NCBI RefSeq assembly: GCF_046105845.1
Contig: NZ_CP151004.1
Reading direction: 5' to 3' (one strand)
Source: Escherichia coli
Lineage (GTDB): Bacteria > Pseudomonadota > Gammaproteobacteria > Enterobacterales > Enterobacteriaceae
DNA: 64,000 bases
Shown here: one piece after another, positions 8,904-25,697 of the stretch
Layout: each line of letters opens with the position of its first letter
How positions within the stretch are numbered: the stretch's first letter is position 1
Position numbers and translations under genes: made by a program
Notes under the pieces: model-generated
Told to the model about the DNA's origin: nothing
The model's database searches: none
The model's input: only the letters and a program-made list of their open reading frames with translations

Positions 8904-9569
8904 TTAACGCAGGCTTTGCGGCAGCAGTTCATCTACCAGTACATTCAGCCAGTGGTGTAGCCCCCACCAGACGCCCGCCAGTAGCAGCGCCAGTGTTACC
9001 AGCCAGAAAAACGGCGAATGCAGCAAAGGGTGCTGACGGGTGGATAACGGCACGTTCAGTACCGCCGTTTCCGGCAGCACGCCAAATGGCGCGACCTGCC
9101 CGTTGAGCGTCGAAATAAGCTGGTCGCGCTCCGGGGCCACCGGATCCTGATAACGCCCGCGAAATCCCAGCAGCAGGACACGGTGAAAGCAGGTCAGCAC
9201 AGCCTGTGCAGGTGCGGGCTCCTGCAACACCTGCTTCATCCGTTCGTACAGCAGCTCGCCTGCCTGCAGGGTGTTGAAGAAATGCGACTGGAGTGGATCC
9301 TTCATCCAGATGGCCTGACCGTCGTCCATGCCGCCACGGCTCAGGACCGTTTCGTCCAGCAGGGCGCACTGTGCGTAAGTTATGTGCTCCACGCTCTCCC
9401 GGCTGAACCCGGCATCTTTCAGGCGTTCGCGGACCCCTTCCACCTGCCGCTGGCAGTGGCGATACAGCTCCATACCGTGACGCACGGTGGTTCCCTGACG
9501 CAGTTCCACCACCGTCAGAAACGTGTCGCGCAGCAGCGCGTCGATATTGATATCCGTCTCTTTTTTCAT
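8904..9569 (-). CDS. tssL: T6SS membrane-complex protein TssL (DotU family)
   Basis: 221-aa ORF with a DotU-like cytoplasmic domain and a C-terminal transmembrane segment (FFWLVTLALLLAGVWWGL). Start overlaps the tssK stop by 4 bp. Confidence 0.85.
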   Translation of the reverse strand: MKKETDINIDALLRDTFLTVVELRQGTTVRHGMELYRHCQRQVEGVRERLKDAGFSRESVEHITYAQCALLDETVLSRGGMDDGQAIWMKDPLQSHFFNTLQAGELLYERMKQVLQEPAPAQAVLTCFHRVLLLGFRGRYQDPVAPERDQLISTLNGQVAPFGVLPETAVLNVPLSTRQHPLLHSPFFWLVTLALLLAGVWWGLHHWLNVLVDELLPQSLR

Positions 9570-10903
9570 GTGCGCAGCACCGCAAACAGTTCAGGTTTCA
9601 GGTCGCCCATGGTTCCCGGCGCATAAATCATGCAGCACCCGGACTCCAGCATCGATTTGGCCGCGTCACTGTGCATATCCAGCGCAAAATACTGGTTCTC
9701 CAGTCGCAGCGGCAGCGCCGCCGGAACTGAGGTCAGTGGCACCAGTGAAACACCGTTCAGCGCCACATTGATAAGCAGCGTGACGTCATCAGGCGCACCG
9801 ATTTTGCAGACCAGCGGTAGCTGGTGCAGTACCTGATGTGCCGGCAGAGAGGAACGAACGGACAGGTAAAAATCGGCCTCTTCCCGCAGGCGCGGATCGT
9901 GCAGGTCTGCTTTCCAGCGGTTGCCCGGCAGGGACGCCAGCTCCAGTGCGATCACCCGTGACGGCAGGCTGGCTTCCAGCAGTTCGCTGAGCAGGGAGAA
10001 CAGTGGCGGAAAGACGGTGGACGGCGATTCGTGGACATAGGGCGGAACGGCGCTGACGTTATGTTCAAGGGAAAACGTCAGCAGCGCTCCGGCAAGCCTC
10101 GCCAGCTCCCGCCAGACCAGTTCGGGATGAACTGCCGGGTAGCGCAGGAAATCTCTCAGTACCGGCTCAGCAGAATTCAGCGCGTTAAGCAGCCAGAACA
10201 GGGAGACATCGGCGATGGCGAAGTCCGCCATACGCTGGTTGCTTTCCCGGCGCATCGCCATCAGACGCTGACATTTGGCCCGTAGCTGCAACAGCAGCGT
10301 GTCCAGACGCTGTACCAGTCCGTCATGGGCGTTAAACGCCAGTAACGGTGGAATGTAATCGCCGTCCTGCGTCCAGTTGCCCTGAACATCCCGCACCAGA
10401 CGCGCCAGTGGGCAGGTGATGTAATCCTGATTGTTATCATGGACAAAGCGCAGGGACAGCGCATGACGCTCAACGGCCATATCTTCACTGTCACTGCCGT
10501 AGATATCCTGCACCTTTTGCCATTCCTGACGATAGCGTAGCGGTCTTTCAGTCTGCTCACCCTGACCGAGATTACCGCCGTTACCATGGGCAAGCGGCAG
10601 CGCCAGCAGAACAACCGCGCTGTCGTTCGTCAGCGCGTGCAGATCGCAGGCGAGAGGCAGAACATCGCTCACATCTGAATCGATCAGCGTGCCATCAGCA
10701 AAACGCAGGCGTACTGCCTGCGTTTTCAGCTTTCCGGACGTCAGGGCATCGCGGTCAAAGAGCACATTCGCGATCCCCCACGGATGACGAATACAAAGTT
10801 GCGCAATGCTGTCATTGCTGAACGCTTCCCAGCGGGCCTGCTGCTGAAACTGCTGAGAGGACAGGAATGTCCCCTCAGCCCACAGTGGTCGATGAATTTT
10901 CAT
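9566..10903 (-). CDS. tssK: T6SS baseplate protein TssK
   Basis: 445-aa ORF with a typical TssK N-terminus (MKIHRPLWAEGTFLSSQQFQQQ), positioned between tssC and tssL. Confidence 0.85.
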   Translation of the reverse strand: MKIHRPLWAEGTFLSSQQFQQQARWEAFSNDSIAQLCIRHPWGIANVLFDRDALTSGKLKTQAVRLRFADGTLIDSDVSDVLPLACDLHALTNDSAVVLLALPLAHGNGGNLGQGEQTERPLRYRQEWQKVQDIYGSDSEDMAVERHALSLRFVHDNNQDYITCPLARLVRDVQGNWTQDGDYIPPLLAFNAHDGLVQRLDTLLLQLRAKCQRLMAMRRESNQRMADFAIADVSLFWLLNALNSAEPVLRDFLRYPAVHPELVWRELARLAGALLTFSLEHNVSAVPPYVHESPSTVFPPLFSLLSELLEASLPSRVIALELASLPGNRWKADLHDPRLREEADFYLSVRSSLPAHQVLHQLPLVCKIGAPDDVTLLINVALNGVSLVPLTSVPAALPLRLENQYFALDMHSDAAKSMLESGCCMIYAPGTMGDLKPELFAVLRT

Positions 10904-10920
10904 ATCACACCACTTCCCGG

Positions 10921-12459
10921 TCAGGCTTTCGCTTTCGGCATCTGGGAAACCAGTGACAGGTTGATATCCATCCCTTCAATCTGGAAATGCGGCACGGCAA
11001 AGAGTCTGACGCGGAAGAAGCCCGGATTGTCCTCAATATCTTCCACGATAACCTTGCCGTCGCGCAGCGGGTGAGACGCCTGCAGTTCATCACCCGGATC
11101 GGTCATCTCCGTCACCAGTGTGCGGATCCAGGTGTTCAGTTCCAGTTCCAGTACGCGGCGGTCTTTGGTGGTACCGATATTCTCGCGCTGGATGATTTTC
11201 AGGTAATGCGCAATGCGGGACAGCAGGAAGATATAGGGTAAACGGGCGTTAATACGGCTGTTGGCAGTGGCATCAGCGGTATCATACAACGCCGGTTTCT
11301 GGGCAGAGTTTGCCGAGAAGAAGCAGGCGTAATCGCGATTCTTATAATAAGAGAGCGGAATAAAGCCAAGGTTGGCAAATTCAAATTCGCGGGTTTCCGG
11401 GATCATCACTTCGGACGGAATTTTGACCTGATTGCCGGTGCCGAGATCGTAAAGATGGATGGGCAGATCGGTCACTGCGCCACCTGCCTGTGGACCACGG
11501 ATCTGCACACACCAGCCATTATTCACAAAGCTCTTCACCATATTGGCGGCAAAAGCGAACGAGGCGTTTGTCCACAGGTACTTTTCGTGATCCGGACCTT
11601 TGACTTCTTCCACATAGTTAAAGCTGCGTACCGGCACCGTGTCCGGCCCGTACGGCAGACGCCCCAGTACGCGCGGCATCACTAATCCCACATAGCGACT
11701 GTCATCCGTATCGCGGAACGATTTCCATTTAATATATTCTGCGCGGTCAAAGTAGTTGCCGATATCTTTAATCGCGGCGACTTCTTCCATCGAATTTTTA
11801 AGGAAGAATTTCGGCCCGACAGAACCTATAAATGGCATATGGGAAGCGGCAGACACTCTGGAAATATTGCGCAGCAGGGCAATATCCTGCGGGCTGTTAT
11901 CAAATTCATAGCTGGAAATTAATGAGGCAACAGGTTCGCCACCCGGCGTATCGTACTCCTGAATGTATGTATGACGATATAAACCGCTCTGAATGATTTC
12001 CGGGGAGTCGTCGAAATCCTGACGCAGATGCTCTTTGCTGATATCCAGCAATTCAATTCTGACATTTTTGCGAAAATCAGTGCGCTGTACGACGAACCAT
12101 GTGCCGCGCCACAGCGACTCGACTTTCTGGAATTCAGGATGGTGCATTACCGCATCAAGCTGCTTACTGATTTTCTGATCCAAATCGTCGATATGAAAAT
12201 CCAGCAGGCTCTTGTCGAGCTTGACCACGTTCTCGCCTGATTTCGCCAGACAGGAAAGCAGAACGTGAATCGCCGCTGTCACGCGCTCATCGGGTGAGGC
12301 ATCCGCCAGTGTTTCGCTGTTTTGCCATAAATCTATTTCCTGAATGGAAGACACCGGGGTTAAATTAATTTTATCAAACAGGGACTGATAAACGCCGCCG
12401 GACTCAGTGGTGGTCAGTGTTGCAGTTTCAGAGGTGGCATGTTCTTGTTGTACAGACAT
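10921..12459 (-). CDS. tssC: T6SS contractile sheath large subunit TssC (VipB)
   Basis: ORF of 512-514 aa with TssC-like sequence. I place the start at the third Met (12459) because AAGGAA sits 6 nt upstream; the ORF track starts at 12465. Confidence 0.9.
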   Translation of the reverse strand: MSVQQEHATSETATLTTTESGGVYQSLFDKINLTPVSSIQEIDLWQNSETLADASPDERVTAAIHVLLSCLAKSGENVVKLDKSLLDFHIDDLDQKISKQLDAVMHHPEFQKVESLWRGTWFVVQRTDFRKNVRIELLDISKEHLRQDFDDSPEIIQSGLYRHTYIQEYDTPGGEPVASLISSYEFDNSPQDIALLRNISRVSAASHMPFIGSVGPKFFLKNSMEEVAAIKDIGNYFDRAEYIKWKSFRDTDDSRYVGLVMPRVLGRLPYGPDTVPVRSFNYVEEVKGPDHEKYLWTNASFAFAANMVKSFVNNGWCVQIRGPQAGGAVTDLPIHLYDLGTGNQVKIPSEVMIPETREFEFANLGFIPLSYYKNRDYACFFSANSAQKPALYDTADATANSRINARLPYIFLLSRIAHYLKIIQRENIGTTKDRRVLELELNTWIRTLVTEMTDPGDELQASHPLRDGKVIVEDIEDNPGFFRVRLFAVPHFQIEGMDINLSLVSQMPKAKA

Positions 12460-12517
12460 CAGCATTTCCTTTTCAGTGATCCTTTCTTCTCCGGTTTAAC
12501 CTGAATATCACTTCGGG

Positions 12518-13018
12518 TTAAACGTTCTCCTGCGGCGCAATTTTCGCCAGTTCATCACGCAGTTCTGAACTGAGCGTTGGGTCTTTCAGGATATTTTCCA
12601 GTTCACGGCGAAACGTTGCGTTATCCAGCAGATTGGATTTGAGGTCACGTAATAAATTGCGCATAGCGAGTAATACACGAAGCTGTGGGATATTTTTTGC
12701 TACCTGTTCGGGTTCAAAATCTTTCAGGCTTTTAAATTCAAGCGCGATATTTTGTTCATTACCGCTTCCGCTTAGTGTGTCTTCTACTGTTAAATTAACC
12801 GCAGGCGAAAACTCAGCCATGACACTGTTGAAGTTGTTTTTATTGATATCAATCTTGTCCCGTTCGGACAGCGGACGTTGCTCTTTTCCGTTACTGTAAT
12901 CGCCAACAGCAAGAAGCTTGAGGGGGAGTTCAACTTTCTTTTTAGCATTGCCTGTATGCAGGTCAAGCTTGATATTTACACGAGCGGCGGGAACTTCATT
13001 CTGGAAACTGTCGGCCAT
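12518..13018 (-). CDS. tssB: T6SS contractile sheath small subunit TssB (VipA)
   Basis: TssB-like sequence (ARVNIKLDLHTG...ELPLKLLAVGDY). I place the start at the internal Met (MADSFQ) preceded by GAGGAAAAGG; the ORF track extends to 13045, which remains possible. Confidence 0.85.
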   Translation of the reverse strand: MADSFQNEVPAARVNIKLDLHTGNAKKKVELPLKLLAVGDYSNGKEQRPLSERDKIDINKNNFNSVMAEFSPAVNLTVEDTLSGSGNEQNIALEFKSLKDFEPEQVAKNIPQLRVLLAMRNLLRDLKSNLLDNATFRRELENILKDPTLSSELRDELAKIAPQENV

Positions 13019-13045
13019 ATCCTTTTCCTCATCATCCACTTTCAT

Positions 13046-13657
13046 CAGGAGTGCGAGATAATCACGCGTGTGACTATCCCATAAGGATTATGACTATATA
13101 AAGATAAAAAACAAGAACAAATATAGAGACAGAAATATCATTTATAATTGCTGTGAATAATTATACGTCTATCTCGAAATTATATTATTTGAGAACATCA
13201 TCCCATTTTTAGGCGTTTTAGCTGTTAAGCAGACGGTTAAACCTATACATGTGTATACATGCATGAAAATACTGAAAAACAACAAGATCCACATCACAAA
13301 AATTTATTTTTCAGAATGACGGAATTCATGTTTTTTTCGCAAATTATTCACCATGCAAATATTTAATTTTTTTCATGCTTAATAAAATATGATGTTTACT
13401 CATATGCCAACTATGCTACCTGTTGACGCCACACACCAATACACAAAACAAATGCAACAATCACAAACCATAAAAATAAAATATGATTTAGCTATAGTTA
13501 TCAACAAAATAACATCACCACCATTTATAATTTTACTATTGATAAAAAATAGAAACTACGATAAATAATAAAGCATTACTTACCAATCATTCTTTTAAAT
13601 GATTCTGGAATGCAGTCTCCACTGCATAATTGGGCTGTGTTTTTTAAGGAGCAAGTA
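13046..13657. promoter_or_regulatory. 612-bp strongly AT-rich divergent intergenic region upstream of tssB (minus) and an unknown gene (plus); presumed T6SS operon promoter region
   Basis: Unusually long, AT-rich non-coding stretch between divergent genes. One GATC (13286-13289). A GATAATCAC element at 13066-13074 resembles half a Fur box. No promoter hexamers could be assigned with confidence. Confidence 0.5.
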
Positions 13658-14599
13658 ATGCATACCATTCCTTATTATAGCAATAACACCTCTATGCCTG
13701 TCTGGGTTACTGTTAGCGAAGCAACTGATATTATCAATAAGTATACTAACAGCCATATTAAAGATTGTGACTTATGGCGTTATGCACTTTATGGTCACTT
13801 ACCTCTTTCAATTTATTTCCAGTCACAAATAAAGCTTAGAAAAATTTGCCTGAGCGGCGATGAAATCATGCTGGATAACATCGAAGAAAGCATTATTGAG
13901 AAGATAGCTCAGTTAAGTGATACGTGCATATACAATGGGAAAAATAAAATAATAAAGACAGAAGGTGACTATATTTCCCCAGAGCATCATATTATTGATA
14001 CACCATTAATTGGTCATGAATATATTGTATTACAAAGATTACTTGCTCACTCATTAAAAATACCAAAACCTATTACAGGACAGTATAATTCTCATTATGG
14101 TGTTGTCGTCCGTGAAAATGGAATAATTTATCAGGTCTTCGAATCAACTACACTGGAAAACAGAATAACCCAGCGCCTTCGCCATCTTTCAATCCCCGTT
14201 GCAACATACTTTTACGAATCAACAAAATCCCAGGATCTCAAACAGGCAGGAACCCGGTATTTCCCGGTTTATCATTTTCCTGACGATGCCTGGTTCGTTA
14301 TCAAACGCACTGCTCTTGAGCAATTCATAAATACTTTTCTCCCTCCCACTCATAAAAATACCCCTAAAAATGGAACCCGCATTTCTACACCGCTATCACG
14401 ATTTCTCTGGCTAGCGTGTAAGCACAATCATGATATTAGCGCACTGATGGGGCACCCCTACAAACTCCTCTCCGTGTTCGAAGAATGGGCCCGCTCCGAC
14501 GGTATCACTGAACGACTAAATGGAGATACGCTGAAAACCGCACTGGAACGCGGTTCTCCGGTTTTAGCCTACCGTAACTCCGAATTAATGAAATCCTAA
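13658..14599 (+). CDS. hypothetical protein (313 aa), function unknown
   Basis: Long ORF. ATG at 13658 is preceded by AAGGAG at good spacing; the ORF track begins further upstream at 13610. I do not recognise a family. Transcribed divergently from the T6SS operon. Confidence 0.6.
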   Translation: MHTIPYYSNNTSMPVWVTVSEATDIINKYTNSHIKDCDLWRYALYGHLPLSIYFQSQIKLRKICLSGDEIMLDNIEESIIEKIAQLSDTCIYNGKNKIIKTEGDYISPEHHIIDTPLIGHEYIVLQRLLAHSLKIPKPITGQYNSHYGVVVRENGIIYQVFESTTLENRITQRLRHLSIPVATYFYESTKSQDLKQAGTRYFPVYHFPDDAWFVIKRTALEQFINTFLPPTHKNTPKNGTRISTPLSRFLWLACKHNHDISALMGHPYKLLSVFEEWARSDGITERLNGDTLKTALERGSPVLAYRNSELMKS

Positions 14600-14699
14600 C
14601 TTAGAGTCCAGAAATCCTTACTTAGAGGTCTGCTGCTTTCCTTCGGTAGGTCTGATGATGTTGAATTGACTAGCACATCATCAACTACCGGAGGATAAA

Positions 14700-14885
14700 A
14701 TGACGTCACAACGATTTCTGCGGCTGGCACAGGTTATGGATAAAACCGGACTGAAACGCTCACAGGTCTATGCTTATATGAAAACAGGGGATTTCCCAAA
14801 ATCCGTCAAAATTGGCCCGTCCAGCGTAGCATGGCTGGAATCGGAAATTGACGAATGGATCAATACAAAAATAAATAACCGCTAA
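14700..14885 (+). CDS. AlpA-family phage/island transcriptional regulator
   Basis: 61-aa ORF (MTSQRFLRLAQVMDKTGLKRSQVYAYMKTGDFPKSVKIGPSSVAWLESEIDEWI) matching the small AlpA/MerR-like HTH family. GGAGG SD. Confidence 0.8.
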   Translation: MTSQRFLRLAQVMDKTGLKRSQVYAYMKTGDFPKSVKIGPSSVAWLESEIDEWINTKINNR

Positions 14886-14924
14886 TGTAGTATTCTCATT
14901 ATTAGTTTGTTTGAGGTCATTAAT

Positions 14925-15719
14925 ATGAACGATGATCACGGTATTCTTATGCCTGTCGCACTAAATCAGCTACGGGCATTTGATTTAAATCCACGCCTTA
15001 CCAAAAATCCAGAATATGATGAAATTAAAGAATCGATTCGCAACCGCGGGCTGGATTATCCGCCACAAATAACACAACGTCCGGGAGAATCTTTTTATAT
15101 TATTGCCAATGGAGGTAATACCCGGCTGGCAATACTCAACGAGTTATGGCTGGAAACTCACGATAAAAAATACTGGAATATTGTCTGTCATTTCTGGAAG
15201 TGGCATACAGACTGGAGCATTGAAGAAGGTAATTTACACTGCCTGCTTGGTCATCTCGTAGAAAATGATAAACGCGGTTCACTGACATTTATTGAACGGG
15301 CATTAGGGGTTCAAAGTGCAATAAACCTGTATCAAAGTATCCGGGGAAGCTCACAAAGAGATCTGGTACAAATGCTCTGTCAGGCGGGATATCCAGTATC
15401 CACCACGAAACTAAGTATTATGTCCGCGACTATCACATTTCTTTTACCCTATATTCCGGAAGCACTTTACGGTGGTCTGTCGAGACGTATTATCGATAAA
15501 TTGCTGGCACTTCGTTCCAATACGCTAAAATTCTGGGACAACTTCTGCCAGACGTTGCCTCCCGAAAAGGAACAGCAACTCCCTCTATTTGACGATATTT
15601 TTGCTATGGCCCTGACTCCCTTTAATGAACCGATGACAGGTTTTTCACTGGAGCATATTCAGGATGAGCTGACAGGGATTATCAGCAAGACACTTAATGT
15701 GGACTCTGCCCAGCGATAA
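14925..15719 (+). CDS. ParB/sulfiredoxin-like N-terminal domain protein (putative)
   Basis: N-terminal region (LNQLRAFDLNPRLTKNPEYDEIKESIRNRGLDYPPQI...IIANGGNTRLAIL) resembles the ParB N-terminal domain pattern. Start taken at ATG 14925 (GAGG 8 nt upstream); the track ORF starts at 14907. Confidence 0.5.
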   Translation: MNDDHGILMPVALNQLRAFDLNPRLTKNPEYDEIKESIRNRGLDYPPQITQRPGESFYIIANGGNTRLAILNELWLETHDKKYWNIVCHFWKWHTDWSIEEGNLHCLLGHLVENDKRGSLTFIERALGVQSAINLYQSIRGSSQRDLVQMLCQAGYPVSTTKLSIMSATITFLLPYIPEALYGGLSRRIIDKLLALRSNTLKFWDNFCQTLPPEKEQQLPLFDDIFAMALTPFNEPMTGFSLEHIQDELTGIISKTLNVDSAQR

Positions 15720-15916
15720 CGGGATGGCCAGATTTGCGCCGGTGATATATTCAATGCCTCCGCAATCAACCGCTCACCTTTCGGCCAGTGGCTCCTGAGT
15801 GCATTTGCCAGCGTACCGGAGGCCAGCCCGGCTTTGCGGGAAACCGCTGCCAGCGACGTTCCCTGTTTTTTCAGTGCCGCGATAATATCTGCGGGGTGCC
15901 AGTCCTGCTGCATCAT
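15659..15916 (-). CDS. Ner/Nlp-family small DNA-binding protein
   Basis: Sequence from the internal Met (MMQQDWHPADIIAALKKQGTSLAAVSRKAGLASGTLANALRSHWPKGERLIAEALNISPAQIWPSRY) resembles Ner/Nlp (SfsB-like) regulators. ATGA overlap with the integrase stop; GGGAGGG SD. Confidence 0.7.
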   Translation of the reverse strand: MMQQDWHPADIIAALKKQGTSLAAVSRKAGLASGTLANALRSHWPKGERLIAEALNISPAQIWPSRYRWAESTLSVLLIIPVSSS

Positions 15917-17137
15917 ACTGCCCTCCCACAAACCAGCCGTTCGGACGGGATACCACATACACGCTGGCTCCACCACGCCATCACGTCGGTTCTCTGCTCA
16001 AGATAGGTCGAGCGGTTATAAGCGGCGCGCGTCTGATTAGTATCCGCATGAGCCAGTACAGCTTCTATCACATCAGGGGAAAATCCGGCCTCATTCAGCG
16101 TGGTGCTACCCAGCGCCCGGAAACCATGTGACACCAGCTCCCCGCAATACCCCATACGCCGTAGTGCCTTATTGACCGTTTCGCTATTCATTGGTTGCGA
16201 GGGCTTAACCCGACCCGGAAACAGGAACGGCGAGTGTCCACTTATCGGTTTAAGTTGCTCCAGTATCCACAGCATTTCATCAGTCAGGGGCACCAGATGC
16301 TCACGGCGTTTTTTCATACGCTCAGCCGGAATAGTCCATAGCTTTTTCTCCGTATCAATCTCACGCCACATGGTGCCTGACGCTTCTCCGGGGCGCACCA
16401 GCGTCAGCAACTGCCACTTAATCAGATAACGAGTCATCAGCGATAGATTGGTGGTTTCAATCCGCTGTACCAGCTCCGGCAGGCGTTCCGGGCGGATAGA
16501 CGCCATATGCTGTTTTTTCGGCTTCTCAAAGACCTTACCGATGGTCGAGGCTGGATTCGCATCAAGCAGGCCGGAATTGACAGCAAATACCATCACTTCG
16601 TTGATACGCTGGGTTAGACGACGCAGGGTTTCCAGCGCACCTCGTGCCCGGACCGGCTCAAGGGCGGCAATCAGAGTATGTGCTTTCAATTCAGCTACCG
16701 GCATCTGTCCGATTGACGGAAGAACATCCCGTTCCATCGAACGCCAGATATCATCTGCATGCACTTCTGAAATGCCACTGGTCTTTTTAATAGCAAACCA
16801 TCTTGTCGCCACATTGATAAACAGGCTGTCGATTGCTTTCTTTTCCTGTTCTGCGGCTTCCTGCTCCAGCTTTTTCGGATCTACACCCTGAGCCAGCAGA
16901 CCAAGATATTCATCATGTACTGCGGGCAGCAGCAAGAGTTACAGCAGGATAATAACCCAGCGTGATATTGGTACGGGCAGTGGAGTTTGGACGCTGGTAA
17001 CGAAAACGCCAGATTTTCTTCCCGGAAGTACGAACAGAAAGCGTCAGACCATGCCCGTCAGGCAGGTCGTAATCTTTATCGGCGGGTTTTGCTTTTTGTA
17101 CTGCGGCAGCAGTCAGCAGGCGGCGGGTAATGGTCAT
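15913..17137 (-). pseudogene. int: P4-type tyrosine integrase interrupted by a frameshift (N-terminal 74-aa ORF plus 340-aa C-terminal ORF in another frame)
   Basis: ORF 16913-17137 encodes a typical P4-integrase N-terminus (AVQKAKPADKDYDLPDGHGLTL...GYYPAVTLAAAR). ORF 15913-16935 encodes the rest, including the catalytic region (HGFRALGSTTL...LAHADTNQT...Y). The frames overlap at 16913-16935 next to a GGG run (16924-16926). Could also be a homopolymer sequencing error. Confidence 0.75.
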
Positions 17138-17220
17138 GATTTACTCCTCAGTTATCGTCAATGTTAAGCGACGAGGCTGACGTAATATCCTGTTCCACCA
17201 CCACTTTTTCAGCCATAAAC

Positions 17221-17280
17221 TCAGAAATGGCCTACGAAATTTGTCCTCTGGTCGCATAGGCCATTTCATGGGCCATTTTG
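17221..17280. repeat. cluster of short repeats AAATGGCCYA (one direct, two inverted) between integrase and aspV
   Basis: AAATGGCCTA at 17224-17233; TAGGCCATTT at 17256-17265; GGGCCATTTT at 17268-17277. Adjacent palindromes GGATACAGGAGTATCC (17285-17300) and AATTTGTCCT/AGGACAAATT (17236-17245 / 17304-17313). Confidence 0.45.
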
Positions 17281-17319
17281 CACCGGATACAGGAGTATCC
17301 AGCAGGACAAATTCAGACG

Positions 17320-17357
17320 AAAAAAAACCGTATCACCTTGATAGCGATACGGTTTTC
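17320..17357 (-). terminator. rho-independent terminator downstream of aspV
   Basis: On the minus strand: CCGTATC-loop-GATACGG hairpin followed by a run of eight T. Confidence 0.65.
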
Positions 17358-17398
17358 TTACTTCACAGGATGTATAAAAACACCCTGAAATTTGTAAG

Positions 17399-17475
17399 TG
17401 GCGGAACGGACGGGACTCGAACCCGCGACCCCCTGCGTGACAGGCAGGTATTCTAACCGACTGAACTACCGCTCC
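17399..17475 (-). tRNA. aspV: tRNA-Asp (GUC)
   Basis: Reverse complement matches E. coli tRNA-Asp (GGAGCGGTAGTTCAGTCGGTTAGAATACCTGCCTGTCACGCAGGGGGTCGCGGGTTCGAGTCCCGTCCGTTCCGCCA). Position next to dnaQ identifies it as aspV. Confidence 0.97.
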
Positions 17476-17503
17476 GCGTTGTGTTCCGTTGGGAACGAGG
17501 CGA

Positions 17504-17532
17504 ATATTACGGATTGCCTCGTCCTTCGTCAA
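17504..17532 (-). promoter_or_regulatory. putative aspV promoter (-35 TTGACG, 17-bp spacer, -10 TAATAT)
   Basis: On the minus strand TTGACG (17527-17532) and TAATAT (17504-17509), about 30 nt upstream of the tRNA 5' end, with an A/T-rich stretch further upstream. Confidence 0.55.
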
Positions 17533-17607
17533 CGATTTTTCTCATCTTTTGAATCGTTTGCTGCAAAAATCGCCCAAGTCGCTATTTTTAGCGCCTTTTA
17601 CATGTAT

Positions 17608-25620: not shown

Positions 25621-25697
25621 TGGCGGAACGGACGGGACTCGAACCCGCGACCCCCTGCGTGACAGGCAGGTATTCTAACCGACTGAACTACCGCTCC
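25621..25697 (-). tRNA. aspU: tRNA-Asp (GUC), distal tRNA of rrnH
   Basis: Identical in sequence to the aspV copy. Lies 3' of the 5S rRNA. Confidence 0.97.

What the first reader, a model, noticed from the sequence alone, without database searches (positions are those of the whole stretch)
15659..15719. Convergent 61-bp overlap of the ParB-like gene 3' end with the Ner-like gene 3' end
The plus-strand ParB-like ORF and the minus-strand Ner-like ORF overlap at their 3' ends, so their transcripts would be antisense to each other there. That could couple their expression. Alternatively the Ner-like C-terminus is over-called.
Basis: seen in the sequence. Interest (0 to 1): 0.25.

Follow-up and report, generated by a model that had tools for sequence, protein, structure and literature searches.

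The report
Deletion scar joining two gene stumps
The 61-base overlap is real, but it is an accident of a large deletion that removed the middle of a mobile element in an E. coli chromosome and fused the front parts of two genes tail to tail; it is ordinary genome decay and shows no sign of being a regulatory device.

Summary
Observation confirmed. The + ORF (ParB-like, best start 14925, stop 15719) and the - ORF (Ner-like, true start 15916, stop 15659) overlap at 15659-15719, which is 61 bp.

Neither 3' end is native. Homology to PFGI-1-class ICE ParB proteins (full length 414-473 aa) stops at Asp260, codon 15702-15704. DNA identity to the full-length 116-aa Ner-like gene of related E. coli stops at 15705. 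The two breakpoints abut with no extra bases, so 15704|15705 is a deletion junction.

In intact relatives these genes lie at opposite ends of a PFGI-1/pKLC102-type integrative conjugative element at tRNA-Asp (aspV). One end is tRNA-int-ner116-relaxase; the other is alpA-parB-DUF2857-PFL_4669. After the fusion each ORF runs into the antisense of the other until a chance stop: 4 codons (SAQR) for ParB', 14 foreign codons after the hybrid codon 71 for Ner'. That run-on is the overlap, and it is shorter than 85% of simulated junctions.

The identical junction occurs in six independent assemblies, so it is not an assembly error. The window's integrase also carries a 2-bp frameshift.

Evolved antisense coupling is not supported. 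Low interest.

The parts
14700..14885 (+). AlpA-family regulator gene. In intact relatives alpA sits directly upstream of parB at the ICE end far from the integrase.
   Evidence: Pfam Phage_AlpA 90 bits. alpA directly precedes full-length parB in the Salmonella loci L017-L019.
14925..15704 (+). ParB' native fragment: codons 1-260 of a PFGI-1-class ICE ParB gene. The C-terminal ~150-210 codons are missing.
   Evidence: TIGR03764 271.6 bits over aa 8-260, profile positions 10-249 of 260. Relatives of 414-473 aa align up to ...TLNVD and then continue YNTVAL..., which the window lacks.
15704..15705 (.). Deletion junction. The last parB-derived base is 15704 and the first ner-derived base is 15705. 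No inserted bases and no IS remnant.
   Evidence: BLAST identity to the full-length ner116 locus L003 ends exactly at 15705 (alignment). ParB protein homology ends at Asp260, GAC 15702-15704.
15705..15719 (+). ParB' run-on: 4 foreign codons (SAQR) plus TAA, read from the antisense of the ner remnant.
   Evidence: Sequence read directly. These residues match no ParB homologue.
15705..15916 (-). Ner' native fragment: codons 1-70 plus two bases of codon 71 of a 116-aa Ner-like gene. It holds the complete HTH_35/Ner fold. Its ATG overlaps the integrase stop (ATGA), and GGAGG lies 7 nt upstream.
   Evidence: HTH_35 104 bits. The region is about 99% identical to L003/L002. The full-length relative P0003 aligns aa 4-69 to Mu Ner 1neq and aa 3-70 to EnrR 7f9h.
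15659..15704 (-). Ner' run-on: third base of hybrid codon 71 (Asp to Glu), 14 foreign codons (STLSVLLIIPVSSS) and TGA, read from the antisense of parB.
   Evidence: The closest relatives continue instead with ...DCTVSESQHPPHYSMTELLAQCDPFAEMSNDEREWVDAPAAGKEIL.
15659..15719 (.). The reported 61-bp convergent ORF overlap: 46 nt of Ner' run-on plus 15 nt of ParB' run-on.
15913..17137 (-). P4-like tyrosine integrase pseudogene, split into ORFs 16913..17137 and 15913..16935 by a 2-bp (CA) deletion near 16923.
   Evidence: Alignment to the intact 408-aa integrases of L003 and L011. Pfam Arm-DNA-bind_3, Phage_int_M and Phage_integrase are spread over the two ORFs.
17399..17475 (-). tRNA-Asp (GTC), the integration site; aspV by its position next to dnaQ-rnhA.
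   Evidence: ARAGORN; Rfam tRNA 67.7 bits; dnaQ/rnhA context.

Best explanation
The overlap is the scar of an internal deletion in a PFGI-1/pKLC102-class integrative conjugative element (ICE) integrated at tRNA-Asp (aspV) in an E. coli chromosome. The deletion removed everything between codon 260 of the ICE parB gene, near the far end of the element, and codon 71 of a 116-aa Ner-like gene that sits just downstream of the integrase at the tRNA end. Because the two genes point towards each other, their 5' portions were joined tail to tail at 15704|15705 and both lost their own stop codons. Each reading frame therefore continues into the antisense strand of the other stump until the first chance stop. 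That is 4 codons for ParB' and, for Ner', hybrid codon 71 plus 14 foreign codons. The sum is the 61-bp overlap. Shown: the two breakpoints, their coincidence, the truncation of both genes, the inheritance of the junction, and the separate ICE ends in intact relatives. Inferred: that one deletion within one ICE made it, and that it has no evolved regulatory role.
For: (1) ParB family relatives are 414-473 aa and align to the window protein only up to ...TLNVD260. The window then has SAQR-stop where they have YNTVAL... plus about 200 more residues. The TIGR03764 match ends at aa 260.
(2) The closest Ner-like relatives are 116 aa, and the window diverges from them after codon 70/71. DNA identity of about 99% to E. 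coli loci L003/L002 stops at 15705.
(3) The two breakpoints are adjacent bases.
(4) In Salmonella locus L009 the order is tRNA-Asp, int, ner116, then a PFGI-1-class relaxase (TIGR03760, 261 bits) and TraG_N. In L017 the order is alpA, parB (467 aa), DUF2857, PFL_4669 (TIGR03761, 234 bits), ssb. These are the two opposite ends of the same ICE class (family synteny described in PMC2647930).
(5) An identical junction sequence is present in six independent isolate and metagenome assemblies, L011-L016.
(6) There is further decay at the locus. The window integrase has a 2-bp frameshift. The sister allele has substitutions at nearly invariant positions: ParB R24P, N72D, M166I and Ner R66H. Other E. 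coli show different ISEc31-associated truncations at the same locus.
(7) The run-on lengths are what chance gives.
(8) There is no Rfam family, terminator-like site or promoter-like site at the junction.
Against: No intact parental ICE closely related at the DNA level was found. The best full-length ParB is 71% identical in protein. The deleted flank of parB, any microhomology, and the co-residence of this parB and this ner116 in one element are therefore inferred from two different Salmonella loci.
No attL copy of the tRNA-Asp 3' end lies to the left in the window, so the far boundary of the remnant is undefined.
Both stumps remain open reading frames in two diverged alleles. ParB' shows 6 synonymous against 5 non-synonymous differences (dN/dS about 0.24, P=0.02 against neutrality). 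This hints that the truncated ParB', which keeps almost the whole TIGR03764 domain, may still be under some constraint.
The minus-strand RNA across the junction folds somewhat better than shuffles (z=-2.64).
Confidence: 0.9

Rival explanations
1. The convergent overlap is an evolved arrangement in which antisense 3' transcript ends couple or mutually repress ParB-like and Ner-like expression.
For: The ORFs do overlap. No terminator-like site separates them, so if both are transcribed the RNAs would be complementary over at least 61 nt. The minus-strand fold has z=-2.64.
Against: The overlapping codons are not homologous to either family. The arrangement is confined to one junction allele group and is absent from all 5,426 complete E. 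coli genomes searched. In intact elements the genes lie at opposite ICE ends. The overlap is smaller than most random junctions would give.
Confidence: 0.03
2. The deletion scar is real, but one or both stumps are still working genes. Ner' keeps the whole Ner/EnrR-type DNA-binding fold and could still act as a small island-encoded DNA-binding regulator. ParB' keeps nearly the whole TIGR03764 domain.
For: Ner' residues 1-70 cover the region that aligns to Mu Ner 7-72/74 and to EnrR. Stand-alone family members are only 68-75 aa. A strong GGAGG lies before the ATG. ParB' dN/dS is about 0.24 between the two junction alleles. EnrR, a genomic-island-encoded Ner homologue, regulates T3SS/T6SS genes (PMC9023278), and a T6SS cluster lies next door.
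Against: The sister allele carries R66H in the nearly invariant WPSRY motif of Ner', and P0001 additionally carries P59L. The sister ParB' has changes at three nearly invariant positions. Ner' has lost its selected ChpS-like tail and gained a hydrophobic 14-aa tail. The upstream integrase, to which it is translationally coupled, is frameshifted in the window. There are too few substitutions to judge selection.
Confidence: 0.2
3. The junction is an assembly chimera or a sequencing error, so the true sequence has separate, complete genes.
For: None beyond the oddity of the overlap.
Against: The same 85 bases across the junction (only one substitution, 1 nt past the ParB' stop) appear in six independent assemblies from different projects. 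The ParB' and Ner' ORF lengths match those of the window in all six, and in the five contigs long enough to show it the flanking gene order is the same.
Confidence: 0.01
4. The junction was produced by IS activity (ISEc31-mediated adjacent deletion, or recombination between two IS copies) and not by a simple illegitimate-recombination deletion.
For: In relatives ISEc31 cuts parB at the position equivalent to window 15362 (L001) and sits 187 bp beyond ner116 (L002/L003), so the locus is an IS target.
Against: Not a single non-parental base lies between the two homology blocks, and no IS end or remnant is present. Recombination between two IS copies would leave one copy behind. The window retains more parB than L001 and less ner than L003, so it derives from neither.
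Confidence: 0.1

Closest known systems
Degraded PFGI-1 / pKLC102 / PAPI-1-class integrative conjugative elements at tRNA genes (for example PFGI-1 of Pseudomonas fluorescens Pf-5, ICEEc2 of E. coli BEN374, ICEKp2 of Klebsiella)
   Same: A tyrosine integrase lies next to a tRNA gene. The parB is of the TIGR03764 class. Intact relatives carry a TIGR03760 relaxase, TraG_N, the PFL_4669 protein and ssb (PMC2647930, PMC6761156).
   Different: Only the two extremities survive: alpA-parB' and ner'-int. The conjugation and maintenance core is gone, the integrase is frameshifted and no attL was found. The site is tRNA-Asp, whereas the named elements use tRNA-Lys or tRNA-Phe (PMC6761156).
Phage Mu Ner and the island-encoded Ner homologue EnrR (PDB 1neq, 7f9h); E. 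coli SfsB/Nlp
   Same: The Ner-like stump keeps the complete HTH_35 fold region. The relative P0003 aligns aa 4-69 to Ner and aa 3-70 to EnrR at E about 1e-22 (Pfam).
   Different: It is not an SfsB orthologue: 97 bits against a cut-off of 150. Its parent is a 116-aa chimera with a ChpS-like antitoxin tail, translationally coupled to an ICE integrase. The window copy has exchanged that tail for 14 residues of antisense-parB sequence.
Functional antisense overlaps between neighbouring genes ('excludon'-type arrangements; recalled from general knowledge, not tested here)
   Same: Oppositely oriented neighbours whose transcripts could be complementary.
   Different: Those arrangements are conserved and involve native gene ends or long UTRs. 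Here the overlap consists only of non-native run-on codons created by a deletion.

Membership tests
PFGI-1-class ICE ParB (NCBIfam TIGR03764) | Score above the curated cut-off of the family model | tested here: met
   271.6 bits against a cut-off of 143.75, aa 8-260.
PFGI-1-class ICE ParB (NCBIfam TIGR03764) | Full-length architecture: N-terminal TIGR03764 domain plus a C-terminal region, 414-473 aa in all | tested here: not met
   The window protein is 264 aa. Homology stops at aa 260, and the conserved C-terminal block seen in P0124, P0126 and P0130 is absent.
PFGI-1-class ICE ParB (NCBIfam TIGR03764) | ICE context: followed by DUF2857, the PFL_4669-family protein and ssb | tested here: not met
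   Present in L017-L019. In the window the next gene is the Ner' stump.
Ner / HTH_35 family (Pfam PF13693) | Score above the gathering threshold over the whole domain | tested here: met
   104.1 bits against 25, profile positions 1-68 of 75.
SfsB/Nlp orthologue (NCBIfam NF007670) | Equivalog cut-off of 150 bits | tested here: not met
   97.2 bits.
116-aa Ner-ChpS-tail chimera of tRNA-Asp ICEs (P0002-P0007, P0083) | C-terminal tail YSM(T/A)ELLAQCDP.AE.S.DE..W......GKEI(L/R) | tested here: not met
   The tail is deleted in the window and the alignment diverges after codon 70/71.
116-aa Ner-ChpS-tail chimera of tRNA-Asp ICEs (P0002-P0007, P0083) | Position immediately downstream of the integrase, with the start overlapping the integrase stop | tested here: met
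   ATGA at 15913-15916; the same arrangement in L003-L008.
Evolved convergent overlapping gene pair with antisense coupling | The overlap involves native, family-conserved 3' coding ends and is conserved across homologous loci | tested here: not met
   Both 3' ends are non-homologous run-on. The arrangement is limited to one junction allele group and is found in 0 of 5,426 complete E. coli genomes.
Evolved convergent overlapping gene pair with antisense coupling | Both genes transcribed through the overlap, with reciprocal effects on expression | not testable with these tools
   Needs strand-specific RNA-seq. The only data here are consensus scans, which show no terminator near the junction.
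Active ICE / excisable genomic island | Intact integrase, attL and attR repeats, and a conjugation module | tested here: not met
   The integrase has a 2-bp frameshift. There is no second copy of the tRNA-Asp 3' end to the left. No relaxase or T4SS genes lie between parB' and ner'.

The most novel reading that the evidence does not exclude
The Ner' stump, which keeps the complete Ner/EnrR DNA-binding fold and a strong ribosome-binding site, has been retained as a working island-encoded regulator, for example of the adjacent aspV T6SS cluster. Convergent transcription from the ParB' stump, which shows dN/dS of about 0.24, would then modulate it. Under this reading a deletion accident has been co-opted into a small antisense-regulated module.
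Probability: 0.04. Interest if true: 0.4.

Novelty: already known. Interest (0 to 1): 0.08.

Why it matters
The main value is for annotation. The two ORFs should be labelled as truncated remnants of an ICE parB and of an integrase-linked Ner-like gene, and the frameshifted integrase as a pseudogene, not as an overlapping functional gene pair. The locus also shows how the aspV hotspot of E. coli, which also carries a T6SS island (PMC2941450), accumulates and erodes mobile elements in different ways in different lineages: a clean deletion here and ISEc31-associated truncations elsewhere. No open question becomes testable through the overlap itself.

Tried and rejected
- I searched for an attL copy of the tRNA-Asp 3' end to delimit the remnant. 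The only other copy is a second tRNA-Asp gene at 25621, and a direct-repeat search over 12900-17600 gave only short chance pairs.
- I looked for an intact, closely related parental ICE in complete E. coli genomes and found none. Only partial matches exist: L001 carries parB' cut by ISEc31, and L002 carries int-ner116-ISEc31.
- The other E. coli megablast hits to the Ner region (80-85% identity) are different Ner-like genes in tRNA-Asn islands and say nothing about this junction.
- The Rfam scan (only the tRNA) and the promoter/terminator scan (nothing near the junction) gave no sign of an RNA element.
- RNA folding across the junction gave z=+0.7 on the + strand and z=-2.64 on the - strand, with no T-run. 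I treat this as chance.
- Microhomology at the breakpoint could not be assessed, because the closest full-length parB DNA (L017) is too diverged. Only a loose GTG..A similarity exists on the ner side.
- The dN/dS test of pseudogene status was inconclusive, with 11 differences in ParB' and 1 in Ner'.

Full report
**The observation**

The ORF table lists a + strand ORF at 14907..15719 and a - strand ORF at 15659..15976. They share 15659..15719, which is 61 bp, exactly as reported. The family labels hold. The + ORF scores 271.6 bits against NCBIfam TIGR03764, 'ICE_PFGI_1_parB' (cut-off 143.75). The - ORF scores 104 bits against Pfam HTH_35, the Ner family (cut-off 25).

Homologues fix the real starts. 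The ParB-like protein starts at ATG 14925 and is 264 aa. The Ner-like protein starts at ATG 15916 and is 85 aa, beginning MMQQDW. The Ner ATG overlaps the integrase stop as ATGA, and GGAGG lies 7 nt upstream.

**The setting**

The window is E. coli chromosome. The dnaQ-rnhA-gloB-mltD stretch is 99.1% identical to many complete genomes. The locus lies beside tRNA-Asp (17399-17475, - strand). This is aspV, a known insertion site of a T6SS island (PMC2941450). The gene order is:

- tssB and tssC, continuing leftwards
- an unknown 329-aa ORF
- alpA at 14700-14885
- the ParB-like ORF
- the Ner-like ORF (- strand)
- a P4-type integrase (- strand)
- tRNA-Asp, then dnaQ

**Both 3' ends are foreign**

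The database search with the ParB-like protein finds relatives of mostly 414-473 aa. In the alignment they match the window protein up to ...ELTGIISKTLNVD and then continue YNTVAL... for about 200 more residues, including a conserved C-terminal block. The window has SAQR-stop instead. The TIGR03764 match ends at residue 260. Asp260 is codon GAC 15702-15704.

The search with the Ner-like protein finds 68-75-aa stand-alone Ner-like proteins. Its closest relatives (76-95% identity) are a group of 116-aa proteins. The window protein follows these up to ...WPSRYRWA and then diverges. At the DNA level, identity of about 99% to E. coli loci L003 and L002 stops at window base 15705.

The last parB-derived base (15704) and the first ner-derived base (15705) are therefore neighbours, with nothing between them.

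- Ner' codons 1-70 are native.
- Ner' codon 71 is a hybrid (Asp to Glu).
- Ner' codons 72-85 (STLSVLLIIPVSSS) and the TGA are the antisense of parB.
- ParB' codons 261-264 (SAQR) and the TAA are the antisense of ner.

The 61-bp overlap is 46 nt of Ner' run-on plus 15 nt of ParB' run-on.

**What was joined**

In Salmonella salamae locus L009 the order is tRNA-Asp, integrase, ner116, then convergently a MobH/PFGI-1-class relaxase (TIGR03760, 261 bits), a ParA-like gene, radC and traG_N.

In Salmonella diarizonae loci L017-L019 the order is alpA, parB (467 aa), DUF2857, a PFL_4669-family ICE protein (TIGR03761, 234 bits), DUF3158, ssb and further ICE core genes.

These are the two opposite ends of the PFGI-1/pKLC102/PAPI-1 class of ICEs, whose conserved parB, ssb, traG, relaxase and int modules are described in PMC2647930 (see also PMC6761156). 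The window keeps only alpA-parB' and ner'-int. The simplest reading is one internal deletion that removed the whole core of the element. I did not find a single intact element with both genes at high DNA identity, so this step is inferred.

**The junction is real and inherited**

Six independent isolate and metagenome assemblies (L011-L016) carry the same ParB' (264 aa) and Ner' (85 aa) with the same 61-bp overlap. The sequence across the junction is identical, and the five contigs that reach the integrase carry it intact at 408 aa. None of the 5,426 complete E. coli genomes carries the whole junction.

Other strains show different erosion of the same locus. In L001, ISEc31 cuts parB at the position equivalent to 15362, and the integrase and ner are gone. 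In L002/L003, int and full-length ner116 are followed by ISEc31 and then yafV. The window's junction holds no IS remnant, so an IS-mediated origin is not indicated.

**Signs of decay**

- The window integrase has a 2-bp (CA) deletion near 16923 that splits it into two ORFs.
- The sister allele has ParB' R24P, N72D and M166I, and Ner' R66H, all at nearly invariant family positions.
- No attL copy of the tRNA 3' end lies to the left.

**Evidence pointing the other way**

- Both stumps remain open in two alleles.
- ParB' shows 6 synonymous against 5 non-synonymous differences (dN/dS about 0.24, P=0.02).
- ParB' keeps almost the whole TIGR03764 domain.
- Ner' keeps the entire Ner/EnrR fold. The relative P0003 aligns aa 4-69 to Mu Ner 1neq and aa 3-70 to EnrR 7f9h.

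Residual function of one or both stumps therefore cannot be excluded. I put it at about 0.2.

**Is the overlap special?**

No. Reading across random junctions in this window gives an overlap of 61 nt or more in 85% of simulations. There is no Rfam family and no terminator- or promoter-like site at the junction. The + strand fold is unremarkable (z=+0.7). The - strand fold is mildly stable (z=-2.64), lacks a T-run, and I treat it as chance.

**Verdict**

The regulatory interpretation is not supported. This is an ordinary remnant of a degraded ICE, a kind of feature that is already known, and interest is low.

**Side observation**

The most interesting thing seen in passing is the intact parent of the Ner stump. 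It is a 116-aa protein that combines a Ner-type DNA-binding domain with a C-terminal tail matching the toxin-binding end of antitoxin ChpS (NF008463 positions 49-82 of 83, E=5e-4). It is translationally coupled to the ICE integrase, has no adjacent toxin gene, and its tail shows 8 synonymous against 3 non-synonymous changes between E. coli and Salmonella. That tail is exactly what the window copy has lost.

Noticed in passing
L003:6001-6351, L009:1581-1931 (relatives of window 15705-15916): The full-length parent of the Ner-like stump is a 116-aa chimera. It has a Ner/HTH_35 DNA-binding domain and a C-terminal tail (YSMTELLAQCDPFAEMSNDEREWVDAPAAGKEIL) that matches the C-terminus of antitoxin ChpS (E=5e-4). 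One source names it 'Antitoxin PemI'. Its start overlaps the ICE integrase stop, no toxin gene lies next to it, and the tail shows 8 synonymous against 3 non-synonymous changes between E. coli and Salmonella. It may be an orphan antitoxin-like regulator of tRNA-Asp ICEs.
   Followed up: partly
window 15913-17137 (deletion near 16923): The P4-type integrase next to tRNA-Asp carries a 2-bp (CA) deletion relative to the intact 408-aa integrases of related strains, which splits it into a 74-aa and a 340-aa ORF.
   Followed up: yes
L001:4772-5985; L002:2468-3681; L003:6538-7751: ISEc31 occupies the same aspV locus in other E. coli. It truncates parB at the position equivalent to window 15362 in one strain and sits 187 bp beyond ner116 in others, with different flanking deletions. 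These are independent routes of erosion of the same element.
   Followed up: partly
window 13610-14599: A 329-aa ORF between tssB and alpA (308 aa as called in relatives) has no Pfam or NCBIfam match. Whether it belongs to the ICE remnant or to the T6SS island is unknown. The region 13000-14700 is also the most diverged part between the window and the sister-allele loci.
   Followed up: no
window 14925-15704 compared with L011:5001-5780: The truncated ParB' shows dN/dS of about 0.24 (6 synonymous, 5 non-synonymous; P=0.02 against neutrality) between the two alleles that share the junction. This hints at residual constraint, even though the sister allele has changes at nearly invariant positions.
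   Followed up: partly
window 15640-15740, minus strand: RNA folding across the junction on the Ner strand is more stable than shuffles (-28.5 kcal/mol, z=-2.64, 1 of 200 shuffles), pairing ner-derived with parB-antisense sequence. No T-run follows.
   Followed up: no
L020:5868-6122; L021:5881-6135: Other 84-aa Ner-like genes (80-85% DNA identity to window 15782-15927) sit in tRNA-Asn islands of E. coli O145 and AR Bank #0349. They lie beside integrase remnants, a HigA antitoxin gene and, in O145, T6SS genes (tssG/tssF/tssI). Ner-like genes thus recur at island edges, and beside T6SS genes in at least one strain.
   Followed up: no
window 25621-25650: This is a second exact copy of the 30-nt tRNA-Asp 3' end. 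It is presumably another tRNA-Asp gene (aspU downstream of an rRNA operon) and not an att repeat.
   Followed up: no
window 412-13045: A run of large minus-strand ORFs includes tssB (12518-13045), tssC (10921-12465) and tssK-like (9566-10903) genes. This is the aspV-associated T6SS cluster known from ExPEC and AIEC strains (PMC2941450).
   Followed up: no
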